Shown here piece after piece: positions 48,597 to 60,599 of a stretch of DNA of 64,000 nucleotides. Numbering within the stretch: the first letter of the stretch is position 1; each line of letters begins with the position of its first letter. The stretch is from contig CP060233.1 in NCBI GenBank assembly GCA_023898665.1, positions 82,801-146,800 on the forward strand, written 5' to 3'. This stretch comes from Candidatus Nomurabacteria bacterium. GTDB taxonomy: Bacteria > Patescibacteriota > Saccharimonadia > Saccharimonadales > HK-STAS-PATE-42. Both the position numbers and the translations under genes were made by a program. The notes under the pieces are model-generated. The model ran no database searches. It was not told the DNA's origin and saw nothing but the letters and a program-made list of their open reading frames with translations.

Positions 48597-49769
48597 ATTA
48601 GAAGAAAAACCCTGATTAGGGAACAGAAATTTAAAAAACTAAATTTAATAAAACCCTTAAGGGCGAGATTAAGTTTAGTTAATAGAAAAAAGTTATTTAC
48701 GGTCTTAACAGGTGTTGTTATTACCTCTGTTGTAGCGCTCTTTGTTCTTGGAGCAAAGCCTCAAAGTTTGAGTTCAAGACCTGCATCTGAAACTTTTATT
48801 AGTGCCAGAATTAGTGAGTCAAAAAACTCTCCACTGAGCGTGTTGAATACTTCTAAAGATGAGATAAATGCTTCAACATCTGATATTCAATCGGCCGATT
48901 TAGCTGCTGTCGTTGGACAAGAGTCGAACATGTTAGTTGAAAGCAATGTAAATGAATATAGGGATACATTAGTTCTACAAAAGGTTGTTGCGCCAATTCA
49001 GGCTGATATTGTTGATAAGCCTCAAACTACTATTGCTAGTGATTCTGTTAGAGAAGTCACTGAATATGTAACAGTTAACGGAGACACGGTTCCGGGAGTT
49101 GCTGATAAATTCTCTATTACGCCGGATACAGTGAGATGGGCGAATAACCTAATTGGCGATTCTGTTGCGCCAGGTACTACACTTAAGATATTACCAATAA
49201 CTGGTGTATTGGTAGTTGCTAAATCAGGCGATACACCTAAGAGCATTGCTGATAGCACAAGCTCATCGGCAGAGGAGATTGCTCTCTTTAATGATATTGA
49301 TATCAATGCTCAGATTCCTGCTGGCAGGCAAATTATTGTCCCTAACGGAAGTCCAAGAACTACTGTAGTTGCAAGGAGTTCTCGAAGAGCGTCTTCTGCT
49401 GCAACTAGTTATGGTTACGCTGCTAACCCTGTTTTTGGTGGAGGTAACACTTATAGTCGTGGCTATTGTACTTGGCATGCAGCCAATAGAAGAGCGGGTA
49501 TAGGACGACCAATCCCTAATAGAATGGGGAATGCAATTAGATGGGCATCAGTTGCATCTTCTCTAGGTTATGCTGTTGATGGTAATCCGAGAGCAGGTGA
49601 TGTATTGTGGCACAGAAATATTGGTGGAGCTGGCCACGTGGCCTTTGTAGAGGGAGTTAATAGTGACGGCAGTTTGCTAGTTAGTGATATGAATTACCCT
49701 ACATGGGGAAGAGTTACCTATAGAACTGTCCCTACTAGTGAGTTCGGCAAGTACCTATTTATCCATTAA
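48597..49769 (+). CDS. Peptidoglycan hydrolase: signal anchor, two LysM domains and a CHAP (NlpC/P60-like) domain
   Basis: LysM-like repeats (YVTVNGDTVPGVADKFSITPDTVRWANNL; VVAKSGDTPKSIADSTSSSAEEIALFNDI). The CHAP domain has a Cys (GYCTWHAANR) and a His (GHVAFVEGV). The track starts at TTG 48768, but the frame is open from 48582 and encodes a TM helix. The start codon is uncertain (see findings). Confidence 0.75.
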   Translation: MRRKTLIREQKFKKLNLIKPLRARLSLVNRKKLFTVLTGVVITSVVALFVLGAKPQSLSSRPASETFISARISESKNSPLSVLNTSKDEINASTSDIQSADLAAVVGQESNMLVESNVNEYRDTLVLQKVVAPIQADIVDKPQTTIASDSVREVTEYVTVNGDTVPGVADKFSITPDTVRWANNLIGDSVAPGTTLKILPITGVLVVAKSGDTPKSIADSTSSSAEEIALFNDIDINAQIPAGRQIIVPNGSPRTTVVARSSRRASSAATSYGYAANPVFGGGNTYSRGYCTWHAANRRAGIGRPIPNRMGNAIRWASVASSLGYAVDGNPRAGDVLWHRNIGGAGHVAFVEGVNSDGSLLVSDMNYPTWGRVTYRTVPTSEFGKYLFIH

Positions 49770-49823
49770 GATAGAAGATTAATTATCTAAACTATTTTTT
49801 GTTAGGGTATACTTAACGTATAA

Positions 49824-51149
49824 ATGTCTTTAAATATAAGTGTAATTCTTAAGAAGCAAACAAAGAGATTTCTGATTGGTCTGTACGGTCATTACGTAAG
49901 GAGGTTCCTTAAGCTTAATAGCCAGATGAAGTTGATCGGGATCTCAGGAAGCGTAGGAAAGACTTCTACGAAATTTGCTGTAGTAGAGATATTGAGGTCC
50001 TCTGGCAAAAAGGTACTTGTGCACGAGGGTGCCTATAATGATCCGTTTGCCTCTATGTTTGTTTTGTTGGGTGTAGATTACCCAAATGTACAAAGTCCAG
50101 TATCAGTTTTAAAAGCTTTTTTTAAGCTTAAAAGAGCTAGTAAAATAGATATTGATTATGACTATGCTGTAATTGAGATCGGTACTGATACACCTGGAGA
50201 GATGAGGCAGTTCGGAAGATTTGGGGTCCTTGATCTCTGCGTAATAAGCGCTATTACTCCTGAGCATATGGTTAACTTTAGATCTTTTGATGAAGTCGTA
50301 CGAGAAGAGCTGGAAGTTCTTAAATATTCTAAAATGATAGTTGCTAATAGCGATTTGATACCTAAGAAGTACCAAAAAGATATTATTTTATCGGGACTTA
50401 GTATTATGTGGTTTGGTACAGAGAAGTCTAATAGTGCGGTTGTGAGAGTGGGAAGCTTGGTTGATATTGGACTTAAGACTAAGCGTGAGATTTTTGTGAA
50501 GATTGATGGTTATGATAATAAGATTAGGACTTCTCTTTTGCATCTACACTCTGGTTTTGTTATAGCTGCCGCTCTTTTGGTTGCTAAAAGCCTAAACTTA
50601 AGTACTACGGCCTCGGCAAGAGTACTAGAAAGTATATTGCCTGCCCCAGGGAGAGGAAGATTAATTGCAGGTAAGAGAGGCTCGATAATAATCGATGATA
50701 GTTACAACAATGTTGGTGCTAATGTGAGTATTGCTTCGCTGGATCTCTTATATGAATTTAATACACCGAGACGAATAGCTGTTTTGGGCGGAATTAATGA
50801 ACTTAGCACTGATATTGAACAGGAGACTCACACGGAGGTCGCTGTTTATCTAAAAGAAAAGAAGCTTCAGGAGGTCGTTTTAATTGGAGCTTTAGCTAAG
50901 AAATATTATAAGCCAATCTTAGCAACCTCTCAGATACCATTTAAATGGTTTTCTACACCATATAAAGCAGGTAACTATCTTCAGAATAAGCTAGTCGCAG
51001 GGATGGTTGTCTTGGTTAAAGGGTCTCAAAATGGTATCTATAGTGAAGAAGCAATCAAACCTCTTCTACAAGACCCTAAGGACTCTTCTCTACTTGTTAG
51101 GCAATCAAAAGCCTGGATAGAAAAGAAGAAGAAAAGCTTTGGGCCTTAA
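49824..51149 (+). CDS. Mur ligase family protein, MurF-like (short N-terminal domain)
   Basis: GISGSVGKTSTKF P-loop, EIGTDTPGEM, a central domain and a C-terminal domain with DDSYNN. Confidence 0.72.
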   Translation: MSLNISVILKKQTKRFLIGLYGHYVRRFLKLNSQMKLIGISGSVGKTSTKFAVVEILRSSGKKVLVHEGAYNDPFASMFVLLGVDYPNVQSPVSVLKAFFKLKRASKIDIDYDYAVIEIGTDTPGEMRQFGRFGVLDLCVISAITPEHMVNFRSFDEVVREELEVLKYSKMIVANSDLIPKKYQKDIILSGLSIMWFGTEKSNSAVVRVGSLVDIGLKTKREIFVKIDGYDNKIRTSLLHLHSGFVIAAALLVAKSLNLSTTASARVLESILPAPGRGRLIAGKRGSIIIDDSYNNVGANVSIASLDLLYEFNTPRRIAVLGGINELSTDIEQETHTEVAVYLKEKKLQEVVLIGALAKKYYKPILATSQIPFKWFSTPYKAGNYLQNKLVAGMVVLVKGSQNGIYSEEAIKPLLQDPKDSSLLVRQSKAWIEKKKKSFGP

Positions 51150-51150
51150 T

Positions 51151-51978
51151 TTAGCGTAAGCTGAATTCGGCACCCTGTTCTAGCTGATCTTTACTTATTG
51201 TTGCTTCTGCTTGCTCCGATATGGTGGATAGTGGTGCATCTGACTGAGCTAGGTCTTGTACTTTTTGAGCTACTTCTGGGGAGTTTATTATATGAGACTG
51301 GTTGTCACCATCATCATTAATTAAGTTAAGTGGCTGAGAAGAGAGGATTTGGCTAGCGGTACTGTTTGCTATTTGTGCAGCCTTGTCTACATCTACTTCT
51401 ACTCGCGTTGCTATTGGAGAATTGTTCGCATCGAATACGTCTATTATGTTAGATTCTTTAGGTTTGTACTTTTGCTTAAGAGCCTCTACTTCTTTAAGAC
51501 TAATTAATCTTTCGCTTTCTCCTGTTCCTAAGTCTTGAGCGTTGGCTGACATTACTCCTCGCGTTGACCATCCTCTTGTATCAAGCTTAGAGCCAAGCCC
51601 GCTAAAGTTGCTATAGACATCTTCTCTGCTAAGACCTTTTGTATAGTCTATTTCTACTTTTTTTGGTGCAGTTACAATAACATGTTGCTCATAGCCTTCT
51701 TGGTCCCAGACGCGAGTTTTGGGTGCGAACTTAAACTTAAGCCACGAAGCTAAAAATACTTCCACTGGTTGGTCATGACGCTGGTATAAACCTAGTACAA
51801 AGGTGACAAAAACAAATGGTAAGAATGGTAGAGCAAGTAGGATATTTACTCTAGCAAAGGTGTAGGCTAAAAATAGTCCGCCAAAACCTGCCAAAACAAA
51901 TAAAAACTGCTTTAAGCTCAAGAAGCCAATTAACTTATCGGCTGTTTCTACATCTTGTGGTACGGTGTGTCTTGCCAT
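51151..51978 (-). CDS. PrgI-family (VirB3-like) type IV secretion membrane protein
   Basis: The N-terminus MARHTVPQDVETADKLIGFLSLKQFLFVLAGFGGLFLAYTF matches the conserved start of PrgI-family proteins found in Gram-positive and CPR T4SS loci. Two TM helices. Confidence 0.7.
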   Translation of the reverse strand: MARHTVPQDVETADKLIGFLSLKQFLFVLAGFGGLFLAYTFARVNILLALPFLPFVFVTFVLGLYQRHDQPVEVFLASWLKFKFAPKTRVWDQEGYEQHVIVTAPKKVEIDYTKGLSREDVYSNFSGLGSKLDTRGWSTRGVMSANAQDLGTGESERLISLKEVEALKQKYKPKESNIIDVFDANNSPIATRVEVDVDKAAQIANSTASQILSSQPLNLINDDGDNQSHIINSPEVAQKVQDLAQSDAPLSTISEQAEATISKDQLEQGAEFSLR

Positions 51979-52008
51979 AGTATCTTTTCAGTTAAAGATT
52001 ATAGCAAG

Positions 52009-52185
52009 TTTAATCCAATAATGTTTTTAACTTGAAAGTCTATCTGCCCTAGCTCTTAGTCCTTTCTTTCTACCCTCCTTAACTCTCTCACCTCCGTATA
52101 TCTGCTGATGTTCTAATATCTTTCTAGTACGAGTAGTGACTGGATCAACATAGTAGAACCTTTCAAAATGACCCATGAGCGTCAT
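52009..52185 (-). CDS. Small basic hypothetical protein (58 aa)
   Basis: My own translation: MTLMGHFERFYYVDPVTTRTRKILEHQQIYGGERVKEGRKKGLRARADRLSS. Its ATG overlaps the upstream stop (ATGA). It is below the ORF-track length cutoff. Confidence 0.3.
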
Positions 52186-52463
52186 GAGTGTTTTCTTTCA
52201 GCTATATCAAAACGCCTAAAGTGGCCGCTAAGCCTTTTTTCTAGGCTCTCCTGTGTGTGATCTGGGTCTTGAGAAAGATCGTATGGCGGCAATATGCCCG
52301 GCTCAAGGGTGGGTATTGGTTGCATGTTCTCAGGGTCATTAATGTGTCTCCCTGGATGGGTTGTTTCGTAGTCGGGATCAATAACTTCATCGGACGGTAC
52401 AAATACCAGGTGTTCATCAAGTTTGCGTTTAGCATCATCTAGCAAAACTAAACGTCTTATCAT
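52182..52463 (-). CDS. Hypothetical protein (93 aa)
   Basis: ORF only; part of the GC-rich island. Confidence 0.4.
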   Translation of the reverse strand: MIRRLVLLDDAKRKLDEHLVFVPSDEVIDPDYETTHPGRHINDPENMQPIPTLEPGILPPYDLSQDPDHTQESLEKRLSGHFRRFDIAERKHS

Positions 52464-54512
52464 CGATATGCTGTGCGAGATCGCCGATTCGTATAGTCCA
52501 GTCGGATAAATCTATTCCGTTCCCTTCTGTGATCATCTCGATGGCTTCTGCACCTGTGTAAAACGCTTCTGTAGTACGACTATGTCATCGATTGGGTTAA
52601 AGGAGTCATCTTTCCATGCCGTTTGGATCGGCAGGAATAGGATTGCCTCTGTCATCCATGAAGTAGAATCTGCCGTCATCGCCTCCCTGCCTAACTCGGC
52701 CGCTTAAGTAGGTATCATCTCTTGGTACAAGCTTATATTCGTCCCCAACTTTTATGTAGAGCTCATGTAGGGTTTCTGGAAGTTGCTGGCCTAGTCCGTC
52801 TAGTCCAGGCTCGTAAATTGGGTCGCCAATCTCGTGTGGTTTAGCGCCTGGCTTGGGTGGTTTATATCCAATAACTTTAAAGCCTTGGGCAGGTTGAGAC
52901 TCAAATCTTTTACAATGTACCTCCTGCCATCAGGACCGACTACGACCTTCCCTATTCTTCCTACTTGATTCCTTGTCTCCTCGTCTTCGGATTTGCTCCT
53001 TCTCTCCTTGCCTCTCTTGTTTGCCTTTGTAAAACCGAGGTAACTTCTCCTCTAGTATCCATAGTGGCGGATATTCTTTCTTCGGTATAGCCGGCTTCAA
53101 CCATCTTGCTCTGGCGTCTGGCGTCTCTGCGTTCTCTTTTGCGGGTTTTCCTTCTTTCTGAACTTGCTGTCGGCTTTTCTGCTCTTTTATGTCTCCTCTT
53201 AGTACGGCTATGCGTCTGTTTGTCGGCCAAGGTCATGGTACCCTCGTTTGGCCTTAATCCTCCAATTGGCGAAGTTCTGTGCGGGCTTTGGCTATAAAAT
53301 GGTGTGTTTTGCGCATTGTTTGGAGTTCTCCCGTCTAAAGTCTTTTCTGGGCTACGTCGCGTAACGACATACCTAGCGGCCTGCTGCGTCTCTTAATGCT
53401 AATTGCTCTGCTTGCTCTTGAGCGCTTTTTACTGCCGCAGAAACAGTATCTAAAGTATCTTCTGTCCTTAACTCGCTGTATGGGATTGAGCTAACTGCTT
53501 CGCTAAAGTCCGTGCTTAAAGATACTGCGATATTACCTATTGCTATAGATCCGGCTTGAGCTCTTATGACATCTGGAGGAAGTGTCGGGTCTATCCATTT
53601 TCAGCCAGGTAGTTCACTATGCCTCTTGGTGCCGGTGCCGGATGAATGCGCTCTTCTCTTATTGTAGATAGATGTTTGGTCATGAGTTACTACTTTTTAA
53701 TGGACTTTTACCTATCAGCTTTGGCTTGATCCCAGGCAGTGTTTTCTACACCAGTTGCATTAATGCTCCTTGGGGCTGCTCCAAGAGGCAGAGGTGGCAG
53801 ACTTCTGTTATGGGCATCTATAGCCGTTCGCATGTCCTCGATTATGCCCGCCGCCTCTTCTGCTGCTCCGGTGTTATTTTGTTCACCGGCTGCTTGGGCC
53901 ATTGTTAGGGCATGTTGGGTGTGCTCTTAAGTTGAGCTTCAGCTTGTTCTTGAGTAATAGTGCCTGCTGCGGCTCTTGCGAGGATAGTCTGCACTTGCTG
54001 ACCCTTAACAACTCTAATGGTTTTAGCTTGCTCCAATTTAACCTTTCCTAGTCCATCATACGGTAAAGCCTTGTCTCCTGAGAATATACCATCTACACTT
54101 CCGATTGTGCTAGCCTGGTCAGTGGGGCTCAGGCTAGCAAACTCCCGCAGCATCTTGAGCGGTTGGTGCGGTAGCCTAGAGCGTTACCGGCTGCACGCCA
54201 AGTTGGTTCTGAAGCCAGCGCCCATAGAGGGCTCCGCCAATGTTGCCGGGCTGTGCTCCTCCTCCAATAATCCCTGGGGCACCAAGGTTCTGGCTGATTA
54301 GAGATGTGCCCGCCGAGATGTCGTCTGCGGTGCCCACCCCAAGTTCAGCTCCCTTGTTGAGCGCCCAAGTTGATGCCTCTGAGTCCAGGGTACCTGCTTT
54401 GCTGTTCCAGCCGGCAAGAGCCGCATTCCATTTAGCCCTGGCCTCATCAGCATTACCCCTTTGGCAACCTCTTCTTGAATAAACCTCTCGACTGCTGCCT
54501 TGGCTGCTTTTG
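52464..54512 (-). pseudogene. String of frame-broken coding fragments in a GC-rich island (no family recognised)
   Basis: Minus-strand coding sense hops between frames at least 8 times. Examples are 53373..53683 (break at the T4 run 53598..53601) and 52961..53370 (break at the T4 run 53343..53346). Four breaks lie between 52463 and 52961, and two or more lie in the apparent C-terminal extension of the VirB6-like gene (54176..54531). Confidence 0.4.
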
Positions 54513-55472
54513 TTAGGCGAAACCATACCAATTCTGAGCTCGTCTTTGGTTAGGCTCTTTAACTGCTGTGCGTTGCTCTTCAAACCTGGCCATCCTTGCC
54601 TCCATTGATCCGGCATTTTGCTGTATCGCTGCGAGCACTCTTGCATCTCTCTCTTCTTGTGTACCAATGACTGTGCGAGGGTTTGCAGCGCTTCTAAGTG
54701 CTGTATTAATCCCCCTTGTAACGAAGTTTCTACCGCCATATCTACTACCTGCCCTGGCATCAGTTCGTCGTTCTGCAACACGGCCAGCTTCCCATTTTTT
54801 GGTTTTGTCGATGAGTCCTTTGTCCTTATTGTTGACTATGCCTGCAACTTTACCTATTGCTCCGCCCGCTAGACTAAAGGCCTTACCTATCAGGAAGTAC
54901 GGAGCTATTAGTATGGCGACTGCCCCGAGTTGATAAAGCATTCCCGCTGCGCCACTATCTCCTCCTTGACTAATTATTCCTGATGCAACACGACTAAGAG
55001 CAAAAAATGCCATGACAAACGGGTACATTAGCATTAACTTGCTGAACCAGTCCCACCACTTCTTAAACCAACTTTCTGTTTGAGGTAAAATCCCTGCCGC
55101 TATGGCTAGGGGGGCCACTATTATTAAGCCGATTAAGGCAACCCTCCGAATCATAACTACTGCGAAGGCCAGTAATATGCCGGTGGCGCCCGCGACTGCT
55201 ACCCCTAAGATTGGTATAAGACCAAGCCCTACTGAGCCGATTGCGAGGCCTAGGGCAACTGCTAAGACGGCACTAAAAGTGTTGCCAGTACCGCTAAAAT
55301 CAATTGTTGTGAGTGTGCCTGAGAATGGAGCAAGAATAAGACCATACGCAGATTCACCCAGCGCGTTAACGGCTCTAATAAAAATATCCATTAGTGCCCA
55401 AGAAAGATTTATGCCCACTAAAGCCATAACAGCCCTTGGTATGATCTTTTTTATGTCGTATGCGCTAAACAT
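54513..55472 (-). CDS. VirB6/TrbL-like polytopic T4SS membrane protein (reading frame apparently continues after frame breaks)
   Basis: 319 aa with about 6 Gly/Ala-rich TM helices, next to PrgI-like and pilin genes. The C-terminal region continues in other frames down to ~54176. The functional call rests on topology and context. Confidence 0.55.
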   Translation of the reverse strand: MFSAYDIKKIIPRAVMALVGINLSWALMDIFIRAVNALGESAYGLILAPFSGTLTTIDFSGTGNTFSAVLAVALGLAIGSVGLGLIPILGVAVAGATGILLAFAVVMIRRVALIGLIIVAPLAIAAGILPQTESWFKKWWDWFSKLMLMYPFVMAFFALSRVASGIISQGGDSGAAGMLYQLGAVAILIAPYFLIGKAFSLAGGAIGKVAGIVNNKDKGLIDKTKKWEAGRVAERRTDARAGSRYGGRNFVTRGINTALRSAANPRTVIGTQEERDARVLAAIQQNAGSMEARMARFEEQRTAVKEPNQRRAQNWYGFA

Positions 55473-55483
55473 CTTTCTTTATT

Positions 55484-56920
55484 TTATCCTTTTATAGCTT
55501 TAACAAGTAATGCAATTAAGAATCCAATTATTAAGAGTATTGTTCCTAGACTTCTGAAAATATTCCAACTATCCTTTATAGATTGAGCGCCTTCGGTGCT
55601 TGTACCGATTTCGTCAACCTTAAACTTCAGAGCAGTTTCTATAGTTCCTTGGAGTACTTCCGTAAAACTTATTATTTTGTCTATCACTGGACAGACAAAC
55701 CAGCCTAAGAAATCATCAGAGCTAAGACATGCGTCAGCTTCTGAGGCACTACTGCTAGAAGATGAGGTGCCCGTGTTGTTTGTAAGGTCGTCTGCTATGC
55801 CTTCGGTTGCGATACCAAGTTGGCTTAACATTGACTTGAGGCTGGTCCCAAAGGCCGGGTCAGAAAGTAGGCAAGTTTTTAGTGTGTTAGCTTGTTCGCT
55901 TGTTGCTTCAATAGTACTAGAGCCTGCTCCAGTGTAAACGAGGTTGTCTTTAATTTCTCCTGAAATTAACCATTCTGCAATAGAATCTGTGCCTATTACT
56001 GGTAGGGACGCTGCGGCAGTACAGAATTTAATGATGTCTGGATTCGAATTTAAGAGTGAAAGCATGGGTCCTCTAACAGCACTATCTACAACTTCACTTA
56101 AATTAGAGGCACGTATATTTGCATATAGGTTTTGAGGGTTGTTGCGGAGTATACTTGTGGTGACGTTGTTTTCAGACATGAAGGTTATAAGGTCAAGATT
56201 GCCCGATTGAGCACGAGACGCGAGACGCGAACAGGTTACTTTTTCGATGTCTCCAATGCCCACAGGGATGTTTGAACCATCGTCCTTTCCGTTCACATAC
56301 TTATAGTCTTTGGAGAGTCCTGATATATCGCTTGTGCCGTCTGTTGACTCTTTAAAACATTCCGCAAATGCTATCGAATATCTTATTTTTTCAATATCAC
56401 CAGTGTCGGCTGCCCCAACAAAAAGGCTGGCAAGAAGTTTCTCAGAGGCTTTTATTCTTTCGGTTTCGTCTTTACGGTTATATTGCGAACCTACCTTGTC
56501 ATAAAAAAGATCTATAAAATCTGAGGTACTCCCGAAAGCCTCAGAAATTCTGCTTTTTCCTGGTACTACTAACTCCTCACAGGCCACAACTCCATCGTCT
56601 CCACTGACTCCTCCAGAGTATTCGAGGTCATGCCCTACGGTTAATCTCCCTTTATTGCCTTCACCTGTTCTAAAGATGTCCATTCTTGCATACTCTGAAG
56701 AGTCTAAGCTCTCTTTAAGTGCTGGACTACCCCCATCGTCTGTGGCTAGTGTGCATCTTGCAATTGCGTTAACCCAGCGAGCGGTAAGATATTGTGCCGG
56801 TATAGGGGAGTTGGTTGGTGTGGAGGCATCTGCTTGACCACTACTAACAGTTACTAATGCAGTAAGTAGTGGCAGTAAAAACAATAAACACAAGATCCTG
56901 TTTAATCTTTTTTTGATCAT
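55484..56920 (-). CDS. Secreted/extracytoplasmic protein with a C-terminal TM anchor (478 aa), T4SS-locus associated
   Basis: Signal peptide (LCLLFLLPLLTALVTVSSGQA), several Cys residues, a Ser-run linker and a terminal TM helix (LGTILLIIGFLIALLV). It sits 11 nt upstream of the VirB6-like gene. Confidence 0.62.
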   Translation of the reverse strand: MIKKRLNRILCLLFLLPLLTALVTVSSGQADASTPTNSPIPAQYLTARWVNAIARCTLATDDGGSPALKESLDSSEYARMDIFRTGEGNKGRLTVGHDLEYSGGVSGDDGVVACEELVVPGKSRISEAFGSTSDFIDLFYDKVGSQYNRKDETERIKASEKLLASLFVGAADTGDIEKIRYSIAFAECFKESTDGTSDISGLSKDYKYVNGKDDGSNIPVGIGDIEKVTCSRLASRAQSGNLDLITFMSENNVTTSILRNNPQNLYANIRASNLSEVVDSAVRGPMLSLLNSNPDIIKFCTAAASLPVIGTDSIAEWLISGEIKDNLVYTGAGSSTIEATSEQANTLKTCLLSDPAFGTSLKSMLSQLGIATEGIADDLTNNTGTSSSSSSASEADACLSSDDFLGWFVCPVIDKIISFTEVLQGTIETALKFKVDEIGTSTEGAQSIKDSWNIFRSLGTILLIIGFLIALLVKAIKG

Positions 56921-56922
56921 AC

Positions 56923-57459
56923 TTATTTTTCTTCAATTTCCCCCACTAAAAACTTTGAGGTTTCAGTAATATAGTCTAAGGATTCTTTATTCGTAGCATT
57001 GATTGTTATGAGCCATATATAGTTTTGTTTTATTCCATAAATTTTAGACATTGTTCCATTTATTGAGTCAAGTAGAAGCCTTGTTCCGTCTGAAAGCACT
57101 ACTACCTTAAGGTCGTCTTTAGGCAAATTACTCAGCTCCAGGAGACCCTTTAACTTGCTTATGTCGTCGCTTGAGCTATCTTTTTTTATAAAGCGTGTAA
57201 TTTCTATTGAGCTATTTTTTAAGTTTTCACTATCTCCAACATATGTTGAGGTAATGGACTCTGGTGTAGATGAGGTAACCTCAAAGTCTTTAGGTATGCT
57301 ATATGAGAAATATCGTCCATCTAAAGAATATAATGTATTGTCAATATTCTTATCTTTGCTGTTACCTTGAAGTAGCATACCTACTATAAGAATAGCGCTC
57401 AAAACAGCGATTCCACCAACTATGTAGATTTTATTTCGTTGATTTTTTTGAGGGGTCAT
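56923..57459 (-). CDS. Membrane-anchored hypothetical protein (178 aa), first gene of the minus-strand T4SS-like operon
   Basis: An N-terminal TM helix (IYIVGGIAVLSAILIVGMLL) and a soluble domain. Its stop is 2 nt from the next gene's start. Confidence 0.58.
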   Translation of the reverse strand: MTPQKNQRNKIYIVGGIAVLSAILIVGMLLQGNSKDKNIDNTLYSLDGRYFSYSIPKDFEVTSSTPESITSTYVGDSENLKNSSIEITRFIKKDSSSDDISKLKGLLELSNLPKDDLKVVVLSDGTRLLLDSINGTMSKIYGIKQNYIWLITINATNKESLDYITETSKFLVGEIEEK

Positions 57460-57526
57460 TTTTGATTTTACTTATATAATAATGTTAACAACAAAACTGC
57501 TTAATTTCCAGCTTATATAAGTGGTG

Positions 57527-57532
57527 TATAAT
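57527..57532 (+). promoter_or_regulatory. Candidate -10 box (TATAAT) for the pilin operon
   Basis: TATAAT ends 7 nt before the ATG at 57540 and no Shine-Dalgarno sequence is visible, which suggests a leaderless or very short leader transcript. Confidence 0.3.
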
Positions 57533-57539
57533 TTTTGAT

Positions 57540-57809
57540 ATGATCGCTGGATTAAGTTTAATTGCAGTTACTGAAACGAGGGAGCTCTCTGAGATATATG
57601 GTTATCTTGCTGACTTTACTCAGCTTTTGACTCTTTTAATTGGTGCGGTCTTAATTATAAGTACTATTGTCGCTGGAATTCAGTACACTACCGCAGGCGG
57701 TTCAAGTGAGAAGGTAGAAAAAGCTAAAGCGAGATTGGCAAGTAATGTTATGGTTTTGGCTATATATCTGTTTTCTGCGGCGGTATTAAATTGGATATTA
57801 CCAGGTTAA
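57540..57809 (+). CDS. T4SS pilin-like protein, paralogue 1 (VirB2/TrbC-like two-helix protein)
   Basis: C-terminal module LLIGAVLIISTIVAGIQYTTAGGSSEKVEKAKARLASNVMVLAIYLF aligns with the five downstream paralogues. Confidence 0.6.
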   Translation: MIAGLSLIAVTETRELSEIYGYLADFTQLLTLLIGAVLIISTIVAGIQYTTAGGSSEKVEKAKARLASNVMVLAIYLFSAAVLNWILPG

Positions 57810-57814
57810 GCTTT

Positions 57815-58312
57815 ATGAGATTTTATAAAAGAATAATTTTAGTTTTTATTTTTACTGCACTTTCACTAAGCTTAATTGGTGCAAAAAATGCTAGTGCACT
57901 GAGTGTCGGTGAATCTTGTGATGTTGAGGACAACTCGCTGTTGGGGGTGCCAACTTGGTACAAATATCTCCCTGCTGAAGGATCTTTACAGATTGTGCCA
58001 CTGAAGGCGGGGGGCTATGAAGAGAAAGTTGTTTGTCAGCCTACTTTAAAAACAATCGATGATGAGAAGATCCCAATAAATAATATTTTGCTAATTGTTG
58101 CTGCTATAACTGAGATATTGATTAGGATCGCTGGTCTTGCGGCATTTATTTACTTAATATATGGGGGGTTTATGTATCTAACGTCTGGTGGGAACTCTGA
58201 AAATATTAGCAAAGCAGGTACCACTCTTTTGAATGCGGCTATTGGTCTAGGTATTGCAATCTCAGCAACTGCATTTATTAGTTTTTTCGCAGGAAGATTA
58301 GCCCAAAAGTAA
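57815..58312 (+). CDS. T4SS pilin-like protein, paralogue 2
   Basis: Signal peptide, a variable region with 2 Cys, then IYLIYGGFMYLTSGGNSENISKAGTTLLNAAIGLGIAI. ATG 57815 is preferred over the track start at 57791. Confidence 0.7.
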   Translation: MRFYKRIILVFIFTALSLSLIGAKNASALSVGESCDVEDNSLLGVPTWYKYLPAEGSLQIVPLKAGGYEEKVVCQPTLKTIDDEKIPINNILLIVAAITEILIRIAGLAAFIYLIYGGFMYLTSGGNSENISKAGTTLLNAAIGLGIAISATAFISFFAGRLAQK

Positions 58313-58360
58313 ACTCCATTGCTTATCCCCTAATGAGTTTTTTTGTGTTAAACTAGGGTT

Positions 58361-58654
58361 ATGTTTGCTACCCTATTATTTAAGCTTTCTAATATATACG
58401 AAGATGCAGGCCTACCTAATGCGAATACTAGTAATTTGGTAACTAATGTTAAGAATCTAGTCTTTGTGGCAGCTGCTGTAGTTGCTCTCTACTTCTTAGT
58501 AATTGCAGGGATGAACTATGTGACCTCATCTGGTAATGCAGAAAAAGCCAAGAAAGCGACACAAACTATAATTTTTGCATCTTTAGGTCTATTTCTAATA
58601 TTAATGAGCTATACGATTATCACCTGGGTATTTAAGATAGGTACAGCAAAATAA
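58361..58654 (+). CDS. T4SS pilin-like protein, paralogue 3
   Basis: LVIAGMNYVTSSGNAEKAKKATQTIIFASLGLFLIL module. Confidence 0.65.
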   Translation: MFATLLFKLSNIYEDAGLPNANTSNLVTNVKNLVFVAAAVVALYFLVIAGMNYVTSSGNAEKAKKATQTIIFASLGLFLILMSYTIITWVFKIGTAK

Positions 58655-58664
58655 AATAAAAAAT

Positions 58665-59144
58665 ATGAAGAGGATAGCAAGATTATTACGAGCAGGGTTA
58701 ATGCTGAGCTATTTATTTATAGTAATGTTTTTCGGATTTGGTGCGCAGTCATCTGCTCTAGTAGATTGTGATCCTAACCCCGCTGATCCTCTAAAATGTT
58801 TCTGTGAGAACATCAAGGATGATCTACCAGAGGCAACTGATGAACAAAAGTCTATCTGTGACCTGAAAGATGTTGAGCAGAGTCCAACATCTGACGAGAC
58901 TTTGCTGGGTAAAAACGGGATTATTAAGAAGGTTCTTAACCTTCTCTCATGGCTAACAGGTTTGTTGGCAGCAGTCTATCTTATTATTGGAGGAGCTAAG
59001 ATTATTACAAGCGGTGGTAACAGTGATTCTGTCACGTCCGGTAGAAAGATGATTATTTATGCGCTTGTGGGTATTGTAGTTGTAATTTCTAGCAATTTGA
59101 TTATAAACTTTGTAATAGGATTAGTTAATAATGCAAGTAAATAA
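58665..59144 (+). CDS. T4SS pilin-like protein, paralogue 4
   Basis: Signal peptide, a 4-Cys variable head (CDPNPADPLKCFC...C), then YLIIGGAKIITSGGNSDSVTSGRKMIIYALVGIVVV. Confidence 0.72.
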   Translation: MKRIARLLRAGLMLSYLFIVMFFGFGAQSSALVDCDPNPADPLKCFCENIKDDLPEATDEQKSICDLKDVEQSPTSDETLLGKNGIIKKVLNLLSWLTGLLAAVYLIIGGAKIITSGGNSDSVTSGRKMIIYALVGIVVVISSNLIINFVIGLVNNASK

Positions 59145-59612
59145 ATGAAGAGATTAAAAAGTTTAGCGTTAAGCTTAATAATTATATTTTCTACGTTAGT
59201 AGTAGTACCAGTTGTTAGTGCGAGTAATGATGCTGGTAATCAGGCTTGTGCAGGACTAGAGAGCTTGGGAGTTGATTGTAATGCGGATGGCAGAACGGCA
59301 GAGGAGATTGCAAAGCAGCCGATAAAATCTCTTATAAATACTTTTTCTATTATTCTTGGTGCAGTTGCTGTGATAATGATAATTTATGGTGGATTTAAAT
59401 TTGTAACGAGCGGTGGAGATGCCGATAGTACTAAGGCCGCTCGAAATACTATTATTTATGCGGCGATTGGATTGGTGGTCGTGCTGATCGCGCAAAGTAT
59501 TGTCTACTTTGTATTTAGACAAGCTAAAACATTGCAGAACATTCCGGAGTCTACAGAAGACCCTGCGGCTGTTTTGATTATTGACAATAGGAACCCTGGT
59601 ACTATAAGCTAA
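59145..59612 (+). CDS. T4SS pilin-like protein, paralogue 5
   Basis: Signal peptide, a 2-Cys head, then MIIYGGFKFVTSGGDADSTKAARNTIIYAAIGLVVVLI. Its start abuts the stop of paralogue 4. Confidence 0.75.
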   Translation: MKRLKSLALSLIIIFSTLVVVPVVSASNDAGNQACAGLESLGVDCNADGRTAEEIAKQPIKSLINTFSIILGAVAVIMIIYGGFKFVTSGGDADSTKAARNTIIYAAIGLVVVLIAQSIVYFVFRQAKTLQNIPESTEDPAAVLIIDNRNPGTIS

Positions 59613-59673
59613 AGATTATAAAGGTGGTACTCTGCTAAACTACCCTAATTTAAAGAAGGTAATAATAAATACT

Positions 59674-60117
59674 ATGAAATTAATTAAAAAATTATTAAGT
59701 TTAACTGTAGCTTTTGCTTTTGTGCTAAGTTCAGTCGCTTTAGTACCAGCGCCTTCGAGTGCAGAATCGTTTAACGACGGTGTTTGTAGAGGTGTTAATA
59801 CGGTATTGAACGATACTGGTGGAACAATCAGCACAGATACTAATTGCGCTGAGGGAGACGGAAACGACCAGCTTGCACAACTTGTTAATAATCTAATTAA
59901 CCTTTTCTCAATTATCGTAGGTGCAGTATCTGTAATTATGATAATTTATGGTGGATTCAAGTACATAACGAGCGGAGGGAGTGATGATGCAACTAAGTCT
60001 GCGAAGAACACAATTCTTTATGCATTAGTCGGTTTAATTATTGTGTTGATTTCTCAGACTATCGTTAAGTTTGTATTTAGTAAGGCACTAAGCTTAAACA
60101 ATGGAGGATCAGAATAA
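59674..60117 (+). CDS. T4SS pilin-like protein, paralogue 6
   Basis: Signal peptide, a 2-Cys head, then MIIYGGFKYITSGGSDDATKSAKNTILYALVGLIIVLI. Confidence 0.75.
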   Translation: MKLIKKLLSLTVAFAFVLSSVALVPAPSSAESFNDGVCRGVNTVLNDTGGTISTDTNCAEGDGNDQLAQLVNNLINLFSIIVGAVSVIMIIYGGFKYITSGGSDDATKSAKNTILYALVGLIIVLISQTIVKFVFSKALSLNNGGSE

Positions 60118-60403: not shown

Positions 60404-60509
60404 TTTATTTTCTCCTTTTGATATTAAAATTAGTTGAGCTGATTAGTAATTCTAACATAAGTATCACTTCTCTTCCAAGGGGTAAGCTCTGATATAATAC
60501 TTTAGAAGA

Positions 60510-60599
60510 GGAGAGGTGGCCGAGTGGTTGAAGGCGCACGCTTGGAAAGCGTGTATGCGTGCAAACGTATCGCAGGTTCGAATCCTGTTCTCTCCGCCA
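60510..60599 (+). tRNA. tRNA-Ser (anticodon GGA), long variable arm
   Basis: GGAGAGG TG GCCGAGTGGTTGAAGGCG CACGC TTGGAAA GCGTG + variable arm + GCAGG TTCGAAT CCTGT TCTCTCC G CCA. Confidence 0.88.

What the first reader, a model, noticed from the sequence alone, without database searches (positions are those of the whole stretch)
52009..55472. GC-rich island inside the T4SS-like locus with a very high density of reading-frame breaks
Local composition jumps to roughly 55-60 %GC. Lines 54181-54300 count 38/60 and 34/60 G+C, against ~33 % in the adjacent pilin genes. Minus-strand coding sense is obvious here but hops between frames at least 8 times in ~2.3 kb.

- The VirB6-like ORF appears to continue past its stop, via ...QNWYGF | RLTKAAKAAVERFIQEEVAKG | NADEARAKWNAALAGWNSKAG..., with one break at the C4/T3 run at 54456-54462.
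- MTKHLSTIREERIHPAPAPRGIVNYLAE continues as WIDPTLPPDVIRAQAGSIAIGN... across the T4 run at 53598-53601.
- MSLRDVAQK continues as TLDGRTPNNAQ...TRRQGIK across the T4 run at 53343-53346.
- Four more breaks lie between 52463 and 52961, for example ...GKVVVGPDGRRYIVKDL | FESQPAQGFKVIGYKPPKPG....

Some small ORFs look genuine; there is an ATGA stop/start overlap at 52182-52185. The island also almost lacks the AAGCTT word that pervades the rest of the window. The most economical reading is a horizontally acquired segment that is being pseudogenised. The alternatives are a locally poor consensus from strain heterogeneity or long-read homopolymer errors, or, much less likely, programmed frameshifting.
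Basis: partly seen in the sequence, partly recalled or inferred. Interest (0 to 1): 0.65.

Follow-up and report, generated by a model that had tools for sequence, protein, structure and literature searches.

The report
Assembly-made frameshifts in two T4SS genes
The apparent decaying foreign island is two ordinary secretion-system genes whose reading frames were most likely scrambled by uncorrected long-read sequencing errors in a hybrid metagenome assembly, so it is an artefact rather than biology.

Summary
The frame breaks are really in the deposited sequence.

- **Provenance.** The window comes from MAG HK-STAS-PATE-42, a Saccharimonadales genome built from raw Nanopore reads and Illumina reads with Flye and then Unicycler.
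- **Gene content.** The stretch is not an insertion. It holds the C-terminal tail of the TrbL/VirB6 gene and a conserved gene of about 550 aa ("gene B"). Both sit between VirB6 and PrgI in every syntenic relative.
- **Flanks.** Outside 52174-54592 the window is 99.8-100% identical to at least seven short-read contigs of the same organism (X).
- **Island.** Inside, the window carries a different version (Y) of the two genes. The same Y version occurs intact on short-read contig L007.
- **Differences from L007.** There are 39 small indels and 26 substitutions in 2.4 kb. No substitution creates a stop codon. Natural divergence in the neighbouring genes shows 18-27 substitutions per indel.
- **Same-run contigs.** Run SRR12358676 yields an intact X-type cassette in X-type sequence (L016) and an intact Y-type cassette in Y-type sequence (L007). 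Neither breaks at the window's X|Y junctions, which lack homology.
- **GC.** Part of the GC rise is intrinsic to these genes and part reflects the GC-richer Y version.

Verdict: artefact, low interest. Whether a real strain carries the Y cassette remains open.

The parts
54593..55472 (-). X-type 5' part of the TrbL/VirB6 gene: the membrane domain and the start of the tail. This part of the sequence is accurate.
   Evidence: Pfam TrbL, 26.9 bits against a 25.9 cutoff. 99-100% identical to short-read contigs L001, L008, L009 and L016 down to 54593. The annotated ORF 54513-55472 (319 aa, USN97622.1) is truncated; relatives are 565-612 aa.
53690..54592 (-). Y-type VirB6 C-terminal tail, frame-broken in the window by 16 indel events (14 of them frame-shifting).
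   Evidence: Near-identical to L007 204-1096, where it forms one open frame. Homologous to the tails of P0017 and P0018 at 54% identity.
52174..53683 (-). Y-type gene B, first ~500 codons of a ~550-aa protein of unknown function. Frame-broken in the window by 23 indel events (22 of them frame-shifting).
   Evidence: L007 carries it intact as P0011, 550 aa. My frame-corrected translation hits P0006-P0008 at 39-41% identity over 100% of its length. No Pfam, NCBIfam or PDB match.
52030..52173 (-). X-type 3' end of gene B (last 48 codons), joined to the Y-type part out of frame. The GHFxRF motif is duplicated at the join.
   Evidence: 100% identical to L001, L008 and L016. Junction sequence; motif homology.
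54592..54593 (.). Left X|Y junction. It is in frame, and the only similarity shared by the two parents is GGAGGC.
   Evidence: Identity to L001, L008, L009 and L016 ends at 54593, and identity to L007 begins at 54592.
52173..52174 (.). Right X|Y junction. It is 1 nt out of frame, and the only similarity shared by the two parents is GG.
54784..54813 (-). Conserved 30-nt patch in VirB6 (IDKTKKWEAG). The two alternative short-read contigs L007 and L016 both start here.
   Evidence: 30/30 identical with L007 and 28/30 with L004.
51944..51979 (-). Conserved patch at the PrgI start codon. L007 and L016 both end here.
   Evidence: 36/36 identical with L004 and 30/30 with L007.
51151..51978 (-). PrgI (VirB3-like) gene, intact.
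   Evidence: Pfam PF12666, E = 3.6e-13. An identical protein is encoded on seven short-read contigs.
55484..57459 (-). Two conserved upstream genes of the locus (478 aa and 178 aa), intact.
   Evidence: Syntenic in L003, L004 and L008. The stretch 54593-57680, which contains them, is 99.84% identical to L008.
57540..60117 (+). Array of five T4SS pilin-like genes (context for the locus).
   Evidence: PF18895 matches.

Best explanation
The 2.4-kb stretch 52174-54592 is uncorrected Nanopore-derived consensus that the hybrid assembler placed between two accurate short-read-derived contigs. It encodes two ordinary genes of the patescibacterial T4SS-like locus: the C-terminal tail of TrbL/VirB6 and a conserved ~550-aa gene B. 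Both genes are intact in nature. The roughly 36 frameshifts are consensus errors, not mutations.

The stretch carries a Y-type version of the two genes, which are among the fastest-evolving in the locus. The backbone is X-type. The exact X|Y joins at 54593 and 52174 are most likely products of read recruitment and long-read bridging.

**Shown here**
- The identity pattern and the indel and substitution counts.
- Intact X-type and Y-type copies in short-read contigs of one sequencing run.
- The assembly method of this MAG.

**Inferred**
- That the stretch is a Unicycler long-read bridge.
- That run SRR12358676 belongs to the same project as the MAG.
- Which reads supplied the Y-type sequence.

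**My split.** Frameshifts artefactual, about 0.85-0.9. Given that, an in-silico mosaic and a real Y-cassette-bearing strain are about equally likely.
For: 1. **Provenance.** The window's contig is MAG HK-STAS-PATE-42: 692,464 bp, circular, Saccharimonadales f__UBA7683. It was built with Flye on raw ONT reads of mean accuracy 86.7%. Unicycler 0.4.8 hybrid assembly was then run twice per bin "to bridge the gaps". Long reads were recruited at >=70% similarity and short reads at >=80%.
2. **Flanks are essentially error-free.** L008 against the window shows 1 mismatch in 3429 nt, and 2 mismatches plus one in-frame 3-nt indel in 3088 nt. L010, L011 and L016 are 100% identical to the window over their flanking stretches.
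3. **Island differences are indel-dominated.** Against the intact short-read copy L007 the island has 39 indels (24 insertions, 15 deletions, mostly 1-2 nt) and 26 substitutions in 2439 columns. Perfect runs of up to 265 nt separate small messy patches.
4. **Internal control.** Natural divergence in the flanking genes (window against L004) shows 1420 mismatches to 52 gap openings, and 1020 to 57.
5. **No nonsense substitutions.** With the indels removed, no internal stop remains inside the island.
6. **The genes are native and syntenic.** L004, L008 and L012 show the order VirB6 (570-585 aa), gene B (536-556 aa), PrgI.
7. **Same-run contigs.** Run SRR12358676 yields L016 (X flanks with X cassette, 100% identical to L008) and L007 (Y flanks with Y cassette). 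Both are unbroken through the window's junction positions.
8. **No independent X|Y join.** No protein combining the X membrane domain with the Y tail exists among 5.8 billion proteins. The junction 35-mer is absent from the JGI metagenome contigs.
9. **Junctions lack homology.** The right one duplicates the GHFxRF motif and is 1 nt out of frame.
Against: - No reads could be inspected, so the errors are inferred from comparison with another contig.
- L007 differs from the window by about 8 isolated substitutions, so it is not necessarily the very same allele.
- If Y-type short reads were in the bin's read set, Unicycler's Pilon step should have repaired the stretch. Why it did not is unexplained.
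- Insertions outnumber deletions, and homopolymer association is weak (16 of 25 single-base indels, p = 0.05). That is not the textbook R9.4 deletion profile.
- The link between SRR12358676 and the MAG's BioProject is inferred, not verified (one search found nothing).
- The window's VirB6 differs from the other X contigs at 54932-54940, so this is a distinct strain. It could truly carry another cassette.
Confidence: 0.85

Rival explanations
1. A real strain of organism X carries the Y-type cassette, having swapped the VirB6 tail and gene B by recombination, plausibly at the conserved patches 54784-54813 and 51944-51979. The frameshifts are still sequencing errors, because this minor allele could not be polished. 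The outer ~190 nt on each side were overwritten by the majority X-type short reads.
For: - The assembler needed long reads running from X flank through Y cassette to X flank, or at least reads that align to both flanks (method).
- Both patches are identical between X and Y over 30 nt or more, and nearly so in L004. That length is my estimate of what homologous recombination needs.
- The window's junctions lie a symmetric 191 and 195 nt inside these patches.
- This strain differs from other X contigs in VirB6.
- The cassette genes evolve fast: 26-28% aa identity against 53-71% for neighbours.
Against: - No independent contig or protein shows X flanks with a Y cassette.
- In run SRR12358676 the two pure branches are unbroken.
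- Both conserved patches are also conserved in a clearly different species, L004, so they do not show that X and Y share a backbone.
- Y is closer to L004 than to X along the whole length of L007.
Confidence: 0.3
2. One reading: a horizontally acquired segment that is truly being pseudogenised in this organism, so the indels are real mutations.
For: - The deposited sequence has broken frames.
- Composition differs from the backbone.
- The stretch is phylogenetically foreign to the backbone.
Against: - Indels outnumber substitutions 1.5 to 1, against about 1 to 18-27 in natural divergence of the neighbouring genes.
- No substitution creates a stop codon.
- Insertions outnumber deletions and all are tiny. 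Bacterial pseudogenes show deletional bias and larger deletions (my own knowledge: Mira, Ochman and Moran 2001).
- The flanks are about 100% identical to other strains, which leaves no time for about 39 fixed indels.
- The broken zone coincides exactly with the part not supported by short-read contigs.
- The segment is not an insertion, and there are no flanking repeats or mobility genes.
Confidence: 0.07
3. Programmed ribosomal frameshifting or slipped-strand phase variation of the VirB6 tail and gene B.
For: Some indels sit in short homopolymers such as G4/G5 and A4/A5.
Against: - About 36 shifts in both directions within 2.4 kb.
- No homologue needs any shift.
- Many indels are not in repeats.
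Confidence: 0.01

Closest known systems
Indel-rich long-read tracts in hybrid or long-read (meta)genome assemblies that split genes into false small ORFs (own knowledge: Watson and Warr 2019; Unicycler long-read bridges, Wick et al. 2017)
   Same: - The assembly came from raw ONT reads plus Unicycler.
- Differences from an accurate copy are mostly 1-2-nt indels.
- The flanks are perfect.
- The record annotates fragment ORFs of 52-93 aa as hypothetical proteins.
   Different: - The error tract is confined to one 2.4-kb strain-variable or species-variable cassette rather than scattered.
- It carries a different version of the genes than the backbone's usual one.
- Homopolymer bias is weak.
Patescibacteria (CPR) T4SS-like locus related to monoderm conjugation machinery (bioRxiv 10.1101/2025.01.22.634366)
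   Same: VirB6/TrbL, PrgI/VirB3, an array of VirB2-like pilins, a CHAP/LysM hydrolase, and a location beside dnaA and dnaN.
   Different: - No VirB4 was found among the window's ORFs I scanned.
- Gene B, about 550 aa and lying between VirB6 and PrgI, matched no Pfam or NCBIfam model. I did not see it among the components in the passages of the paper I read.
- Gene B belongs to a very small family: 16 representative clusters out of 1.84 billion.
VirB6 proteins with long C-terminal extensions, such as the Rickettsiales and Anaplasma VirB6 paralogues (PMC7648143 abstract)
   Same: An N-terminal polytopic TrbL/VirB6 domain followed by a long hydrophilic tail that evolves fast.
   Different: - The tail here is only about 300 aa.
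- I detected no sequence similarity to those extensions.
- Any role in contact with the host bacterium is conjecture.
Bacterial pseudogenes in reduced genomes
   Same: Multiple frame disruptions relative to intact orthologues.
   Different: The mutation spectrum does not fit. Indels outnumber substitutions, there are no nonsense codons, and there is no deletion bias.

Membership tests
Long-read consensus error tract in a hybrid assembly | The assembly was produced from error-prone long reads with gap bridging. | tested here: met
   MAG HK-STAS-PATE-42: Flye on raw ONT reads (86.7% mean accuracy), then Unicycler 0.4.8 run twice "to bridge the gaps".
Long-read consensus error tract in a hybrid assembly | Differences from an accurate copy of the same sequence are dominated by small indels. 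| tested here: met
   39 indels against 26 substitutions in 2439 columns versus L007. Natural divergence nearby shows 18-27 substitutions per gap.
Long-read consensus error tract in a hybrid assembly | The adjacent sequence agrees with short-read assemblies. | tested here: met
   99.84-100% identity over 6.5 kb of flanks.
Long-read consensus error tract in a hybrid assembly | Read pile-ups contradict the consensus at the indel sites. | not testable with these tools
   No raw reads were available.
Bacterial pseudogene | The ORF is disrupted relative to intact homologues. | tested here: met
   The window's VirB6 ORF is 319 aa against 565-612 aa in relatives. Gene B is split into many pieces against 536-561 aa.
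Bacterial pseudogene | A neutral mutation spectrum: substitutions outnumber indels, nonsense codons appear, and deletions are favoured. | tested here: not met
   Indels to substitutions 1.5 to 1, 0 nonsense, 24 insertions against 15 deletions.
Bacterial pseudogene | The disruptions are real in the organism's DNA. | not testable with these tools
   This needs reads or PCR.
Horizontally acquired genomic island | Composition is atypical relative to the host genome. | tested here: inconclusive
   49.0% against 39.3% GC. But the orthologous genes are also GC-elevated in L004 (46-51% against 39-44%) and in the X-type allele (44.4%).
Horizontally acquired genomic island | The segment is an insertion absent from syntenic relatives. 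| tested here: not met
   The same two genes occupy the same place in L004, L005, L008 and L012.
Horizontally acquired genomic island | Mobility genes, a tRNA or direct repeats lie at the borders. | tested here: not met
   No integrase-like ORF. No flanking repeats beyond chance. The nearest tRNAs are at 39.4 and 60.5 kb.
TrbL/VirB6 (PF04610/PF19590) | A profile match above the curated threshold. | tested here: met
   PF04610 at 26.9 bits against a cutoff of 25.9. PF19590 is precomputed for P0001.
TrbL/VirB6 (PF04610/PF19590) | Full-length architecture as in the closest relatives: a membrane domain plus a ~300-aa tail. | tested here: not met
   This is not met in the deposited sequence, where the ORF stops at 319 aa. 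It is met once the indels are removed.
Patescibacterial T4SS-like locus | VirB6, PrgI/VirB3 and a VirB2-like pilin array near dnaA. | tested here: met
   Published description.
Patescibacterial T4SS-like locus | A VirB4 ATPase in the cluster. | tested here: inconclusive
   None of the 19 ORFs I scanned is VirB4. Not every ORF of the window was scanned.
Programmed ribosomal frameshifting | A shift site conserved in homologues. | tested here: not met
   All homologues are single open frames.

The most novel reading that the evidence does not exclude
Beneath the artefact, the VirB6 C-terminal tail plus gene B may form a swappable cassette. Two nucleotide patches bound it (54784-54813 in VirB6, and 51944-51979 at the PrgI start) and stay identical across species. 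Co-occurring Saccharimonadales could exchange the cassette there by homologous recombination. One backbone would then carry versions only about 26% identical, perhaps retuning which host bacterium the epibiont can attach to or feed on. On this reading the window's strain truly carries the Y cassette.
Probability: 0.2. Interest if true: 0.5.

Novelty: not a real feature. Interest (0 to 1): 0.1.

Why it matters
- **Data quality.** A genome deposited as complete and circular carries a 2.4-kb error tract. That tract truncates VirB6 and turns one ~550-aa gene into small "hypothetical proteins" (USN97616, USN97617, USN97618 and USN97620 were confirmed; six are inferred from the accession numbering). 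These now sit in nr, and one of them seeds a protein cluster.
- **Risk of misreading.** Anyone inferring T4SS loss or pseudogenisation in this Saccharimonadales lineage from the record would be misled.
- **Method lesson.** Hybrid assemblies of mixed populations can leave unpolished, possibly chimeric bridges exactly at the most variable loci.
- **Biology.** The modest residue is that the VirB6 tail and gene B are the fastest-evolving genes of this conserved locus. If gene B is part of the epibiont-host interface, it is an uncharacterised, lineage-restricted component worth testing.

Tried and rejected
- **Loci searches.** The search for related loci for gene B in the GTDB genomes and the JGI metagenomes returned no confirmed locus.
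- **Exact-match scans.** A scan for the X|Y junction 35-mer in the JGI contigs and for an island 32-mer in the GTDB genomes found nothing. I got neither independent support for the junction nor a longer Y-type contig.
- **Literature search by accession.** Searching for SRR12358676, ERZ795053, H6799 and USN97622 gave only irrelevant hits. The MAG was instead identified by its length in the paper's supplementary table.
- **Function of gene B.** Pfam, NCBIfam and a PDB profile search gave nothing. The AlphaFold2 model of P0008 from a 3-sequence alignment was poor (pLDDT 41.5), so I ran no fold search.
- **Homopolymer test.** Only a weak trend: 16 of 25 single-base indels, p = 0.05. It is not used as a main argument.
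- **Island-border repeats.** Only chance-level short matches.
- **Do the shared 30-nt contig ends show that X and Y share a backbone?** Rejected. Both patches are also conserved in the distinct species L004.
- **Is the right junction positionally homologous?** The five-protein alignment says no. GHFRRF aligns with GHFERF, so the motif is duplicated in the window.
- **My first frame-corrected path.** It assumed 14 shifts and was too simple. L007 shows 36.
Full report
**What the window is**

The 319-aa TrbL/VirB6 ORF (54513-55472, minus strand) is identical to NCBI USN97622.1, from a 692,464-bp contig named "Candidatus Nomurabacteria bacterium". A contig of exactly that length is MAG HK-STAS-PATE-42 of Liu et al. 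2021 (Microbiome 9:205, PMC8518188). That MAG is one circular contig with GC 38.4%, classified Saccharimonadia; Saccharimonadales; f__UBA7683.

The MAG was built in these steps:
- Flye 2.4.2 on raw Nanopore reads of mean accuracy 86.7%.
- Binning.
- Recruitment of long reads at >=70% similarity and short reads at >=80% similarity.
- Two rounds of Unicycler 0.4.8 hybrid assembly per bin, "to bridge the gaps".

The surrounding genes form the known patescibacterial T4SS-like locus beside dnaA and dnaN (published description):
- five T4SS pilin-like ORFs (57540-60117);
- a 178-aa and a 478-aa gene;
- TrbL/VirB6;
- PrgI (51151-51978);
- a Mur-ligase-like gene;
- a LysM/CHAP hydrolase.

**Checking the observation**

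No long ORF exists between VirB6 and PrgI, and protein-like translation hops among the three minus-strand frames. This is the only long stretch of the window without a 100-codon open frame that is not explained by tRNAs or small genes.

GC is 49.0% in 52175-54592 against 39.3% elsewhere, the highest 2.4-kb value in the window. It reaches 57-60% only around 54100-54500.

AAGCTT is about twofold over-represented in the window, with 96 sites against 46 expected. It occurs once in the finding's range, where about 5 would be expected from the window's own rate. By my arithmetic the Poisson probability is about 0.03.

**What the stretch encodes**

It is not an insertion. Syntenic loci from related organisms all have one VirB6 gene of 570-585 aa, then one gene of 536-556 aa ("gene B"), then PrgI:

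| Locus | Source | Length |
|---|---|---|
| L004 | Logan | 30.6 kb |
| L008 | ENA | 8.8 kb |
| L012 | ENA | 5.6 kb |

L005 (JGI, 5.1 kb) begins inside the upstream gene and shows gene B (556 aa) followed by PrgI.

Other evidence on the two genes:
- Other VirB6 relatives are 565-612 aa.
- My first frame-corrected translation of the window's gene B hit three full-length proteins at 39-41% identity over 100% of its length.
- Gene B has no Pfam, NCBIfam or PDB relative.
- Gene B belongs to a tiny family, 16 representative clusters among 1.84 billion.
- An AlphaFold2 model was too poor to use.

**The decisive comparisons**

*The backbone (X).* Seven or more short-read contigs from at least six samples are 99.8-100% identical to the window on both sides: L001, L008-L013 and L016. 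All lose similarity to it at exactly 54593 and 52174. Between those points they carry an intact X-type cassette, consisting of the VirB6 tail plus a 536-aa gene B.

*The island (Y).* The 93-aa ORF at 52182-52463 clusters at 90% identity with a 550-aa Logan protein, P0011. Its contig L007 (2820 bp) carries the window's version of both genes as open frames. L007 is near-identical to the window only within 54592-52174. Its own flanks are about 75% identical to the window, or unalignable.

*The differences within the island*:
- 24 insertions in the window, totalling 42 nt.
- 15 deletions in the window, totalling 20 nt.
- 26 substitutions, many clustered beside indels.
- All of this lies in 2439 alignment columns, with perfect runs of up to 265 nt between small messy patches.
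- 36 of the 39 indels shift the frame.

Removing the indels while keeping the window's substitutions leaves no internal stop inside the island.

*Two controls.* Natural divergence between the window and L004 in the flanking genes shows 18-27 substitutions per gap opening. The window's flanks differ from L008 by 3 substitutions and one in-frame 3-nt indel in 6.5 kb.

**Why this is an artefact and not decay**

- A real pseudogene with about 39 fixed indels should carry many more substitutions, some nonsense codons, and a bias towards deletions. That expectation is my own knowledge (Mira, Ochman and Moran 2001).
- The flanks should not then be identical to other strains.
- Instead the error-like tract coincides to the base with the part of the contig that short-read assemblies of this organism do not support.
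- The genome was made with a tool that, to my knowledge (Wick et al. 2017), fills short-read graph gaps with long-read consensus.

One point remains unexplained. I do not know why Unicycler's short-read polishing did not repair the tract.

Homopolymer association of the single-base indels is only a weak trend, 16 of 25 with p = 0.05. I do not lean on it.

**Is the Y cassette really in this backbone?**

Logan contigs L016 and L007 come from the same run, SRR12358676.
- L016 is 100% identical to L008. It carries X-type sequence through the whole cassette, and its ends are 100% identical to the window at 54593-54813 and 51950-52174.
- L007 is Y-type throughout, except for its terminal 30 nt.
- Both contigs begin and end at the same two 30-nt patches, so they behave as the two branches of a k=31 bubble.
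- Both run unbroken through the window's junction positions.

No contig, protein or JGI sequence shows an X|Y join.

The junctions themselves look non-biological:
- They share only GGAGGC and GG between the two parents.
- The right one is 1 nt out of frame.
- The right one duplicates the conserved GHFxRF motif.
- They lie a symmetric 191 and 195 nt inside the two conserved patches. That symmetry hints at a read-length or insert-length effect, but this is inference.

So the window's exact mosaic is probably assembly-made. Whether some X-like cells truly carry a Y cassette, joined nearer the conserved patches, cannot be decided without reads. The patches are also conserved in the distinct species L004. 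Y is closer to L004 than to X along the whole length of L007.

**The GC signal**

Part of it is intrinsic to these genes:
- The X-type cassette is 44.4% GC in a 39% genome.
- L004's VirB6 and gene B are 46-51% GC against flanks of 39-44%.

Part of it reflects the Y version. Its GC3 is 0.41-0.45, against 0.31-0.37 for X.

**Verdict**

Its stated alternative, poor consensus or long-read errors at a heterogeneous locus, is supported.

The residual biology has two parts. The VirB6 tail and gene B evolve much faster than their neighbours: 26-28% aa identity against 53-71%. And two very different versions co-occur in one sludge sample.

Noticed in passing
whole window; gap 51589-57807: The palindrome AAGCTT occurs 96 times against 46.4 +/- 6.5 expected from dinucleotide-preserving shuffles. 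Only one site (52729) lies in the 6.2 kb covering PrgI through the 178-aa gene.
   Followed up: partly
window 54784-54813 and 51944-51979: Two nucleotide patches bracket the variable cassette: VirB6 IDKTKKWEAG, and the PrgI start plus 11 codons. They are identical or nearly so across species that are otherwise about 70% identical (28/30 and 36/36 with L004). The short-read contigs L007 and L016 both start and end exactly there.
   Followed up: partly
window 54932-54940: The window's VirB6 differs from all other X-type contigs by an in-frame 3-nt indel plus one substitution (GMLYQLG against GIYKLG). The backbone is therefore a slightly different strain.
   Followed up: partly
window 52027-54153: The public record annotates at least four fragments of the two broken genes as separate hypothetical proteins: USN97616, USN97617, USN97618 and USN97620, of 52-93 aa. 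One of them is the representative of a protein cluster that also holds the intact 550-aa protein.
   Followed up: yes
window 48768-60117: The T4SS-like locus has VirB6, PrgI, five pilin-like genes and a LysM/CHAP hydrolase next to dnaA and dnaN. No VirB4 ATPase was found among the 19 ORFs scanned in the 64-kb window.
   Followed up: partly
L004 5259-8699; L008 2209-5547; L007: The VirB6 tail and gene B are the fastest-evolving genes of the locus: 27-28% aa identity between X and L004, against 53-71% for the neighbouring genes. Gene B belongs to a very small family with no known domain.
   Followed up: partly
L004 1-30 and window ~60509-60538: Logan contig L004, from a different run, begins with a 30-mer shared with the window, inside the tRNA at 60510-60596. 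This again suggests that Logan contigs break at k-mers shared between co-occurring relatives.
   Followed up: no
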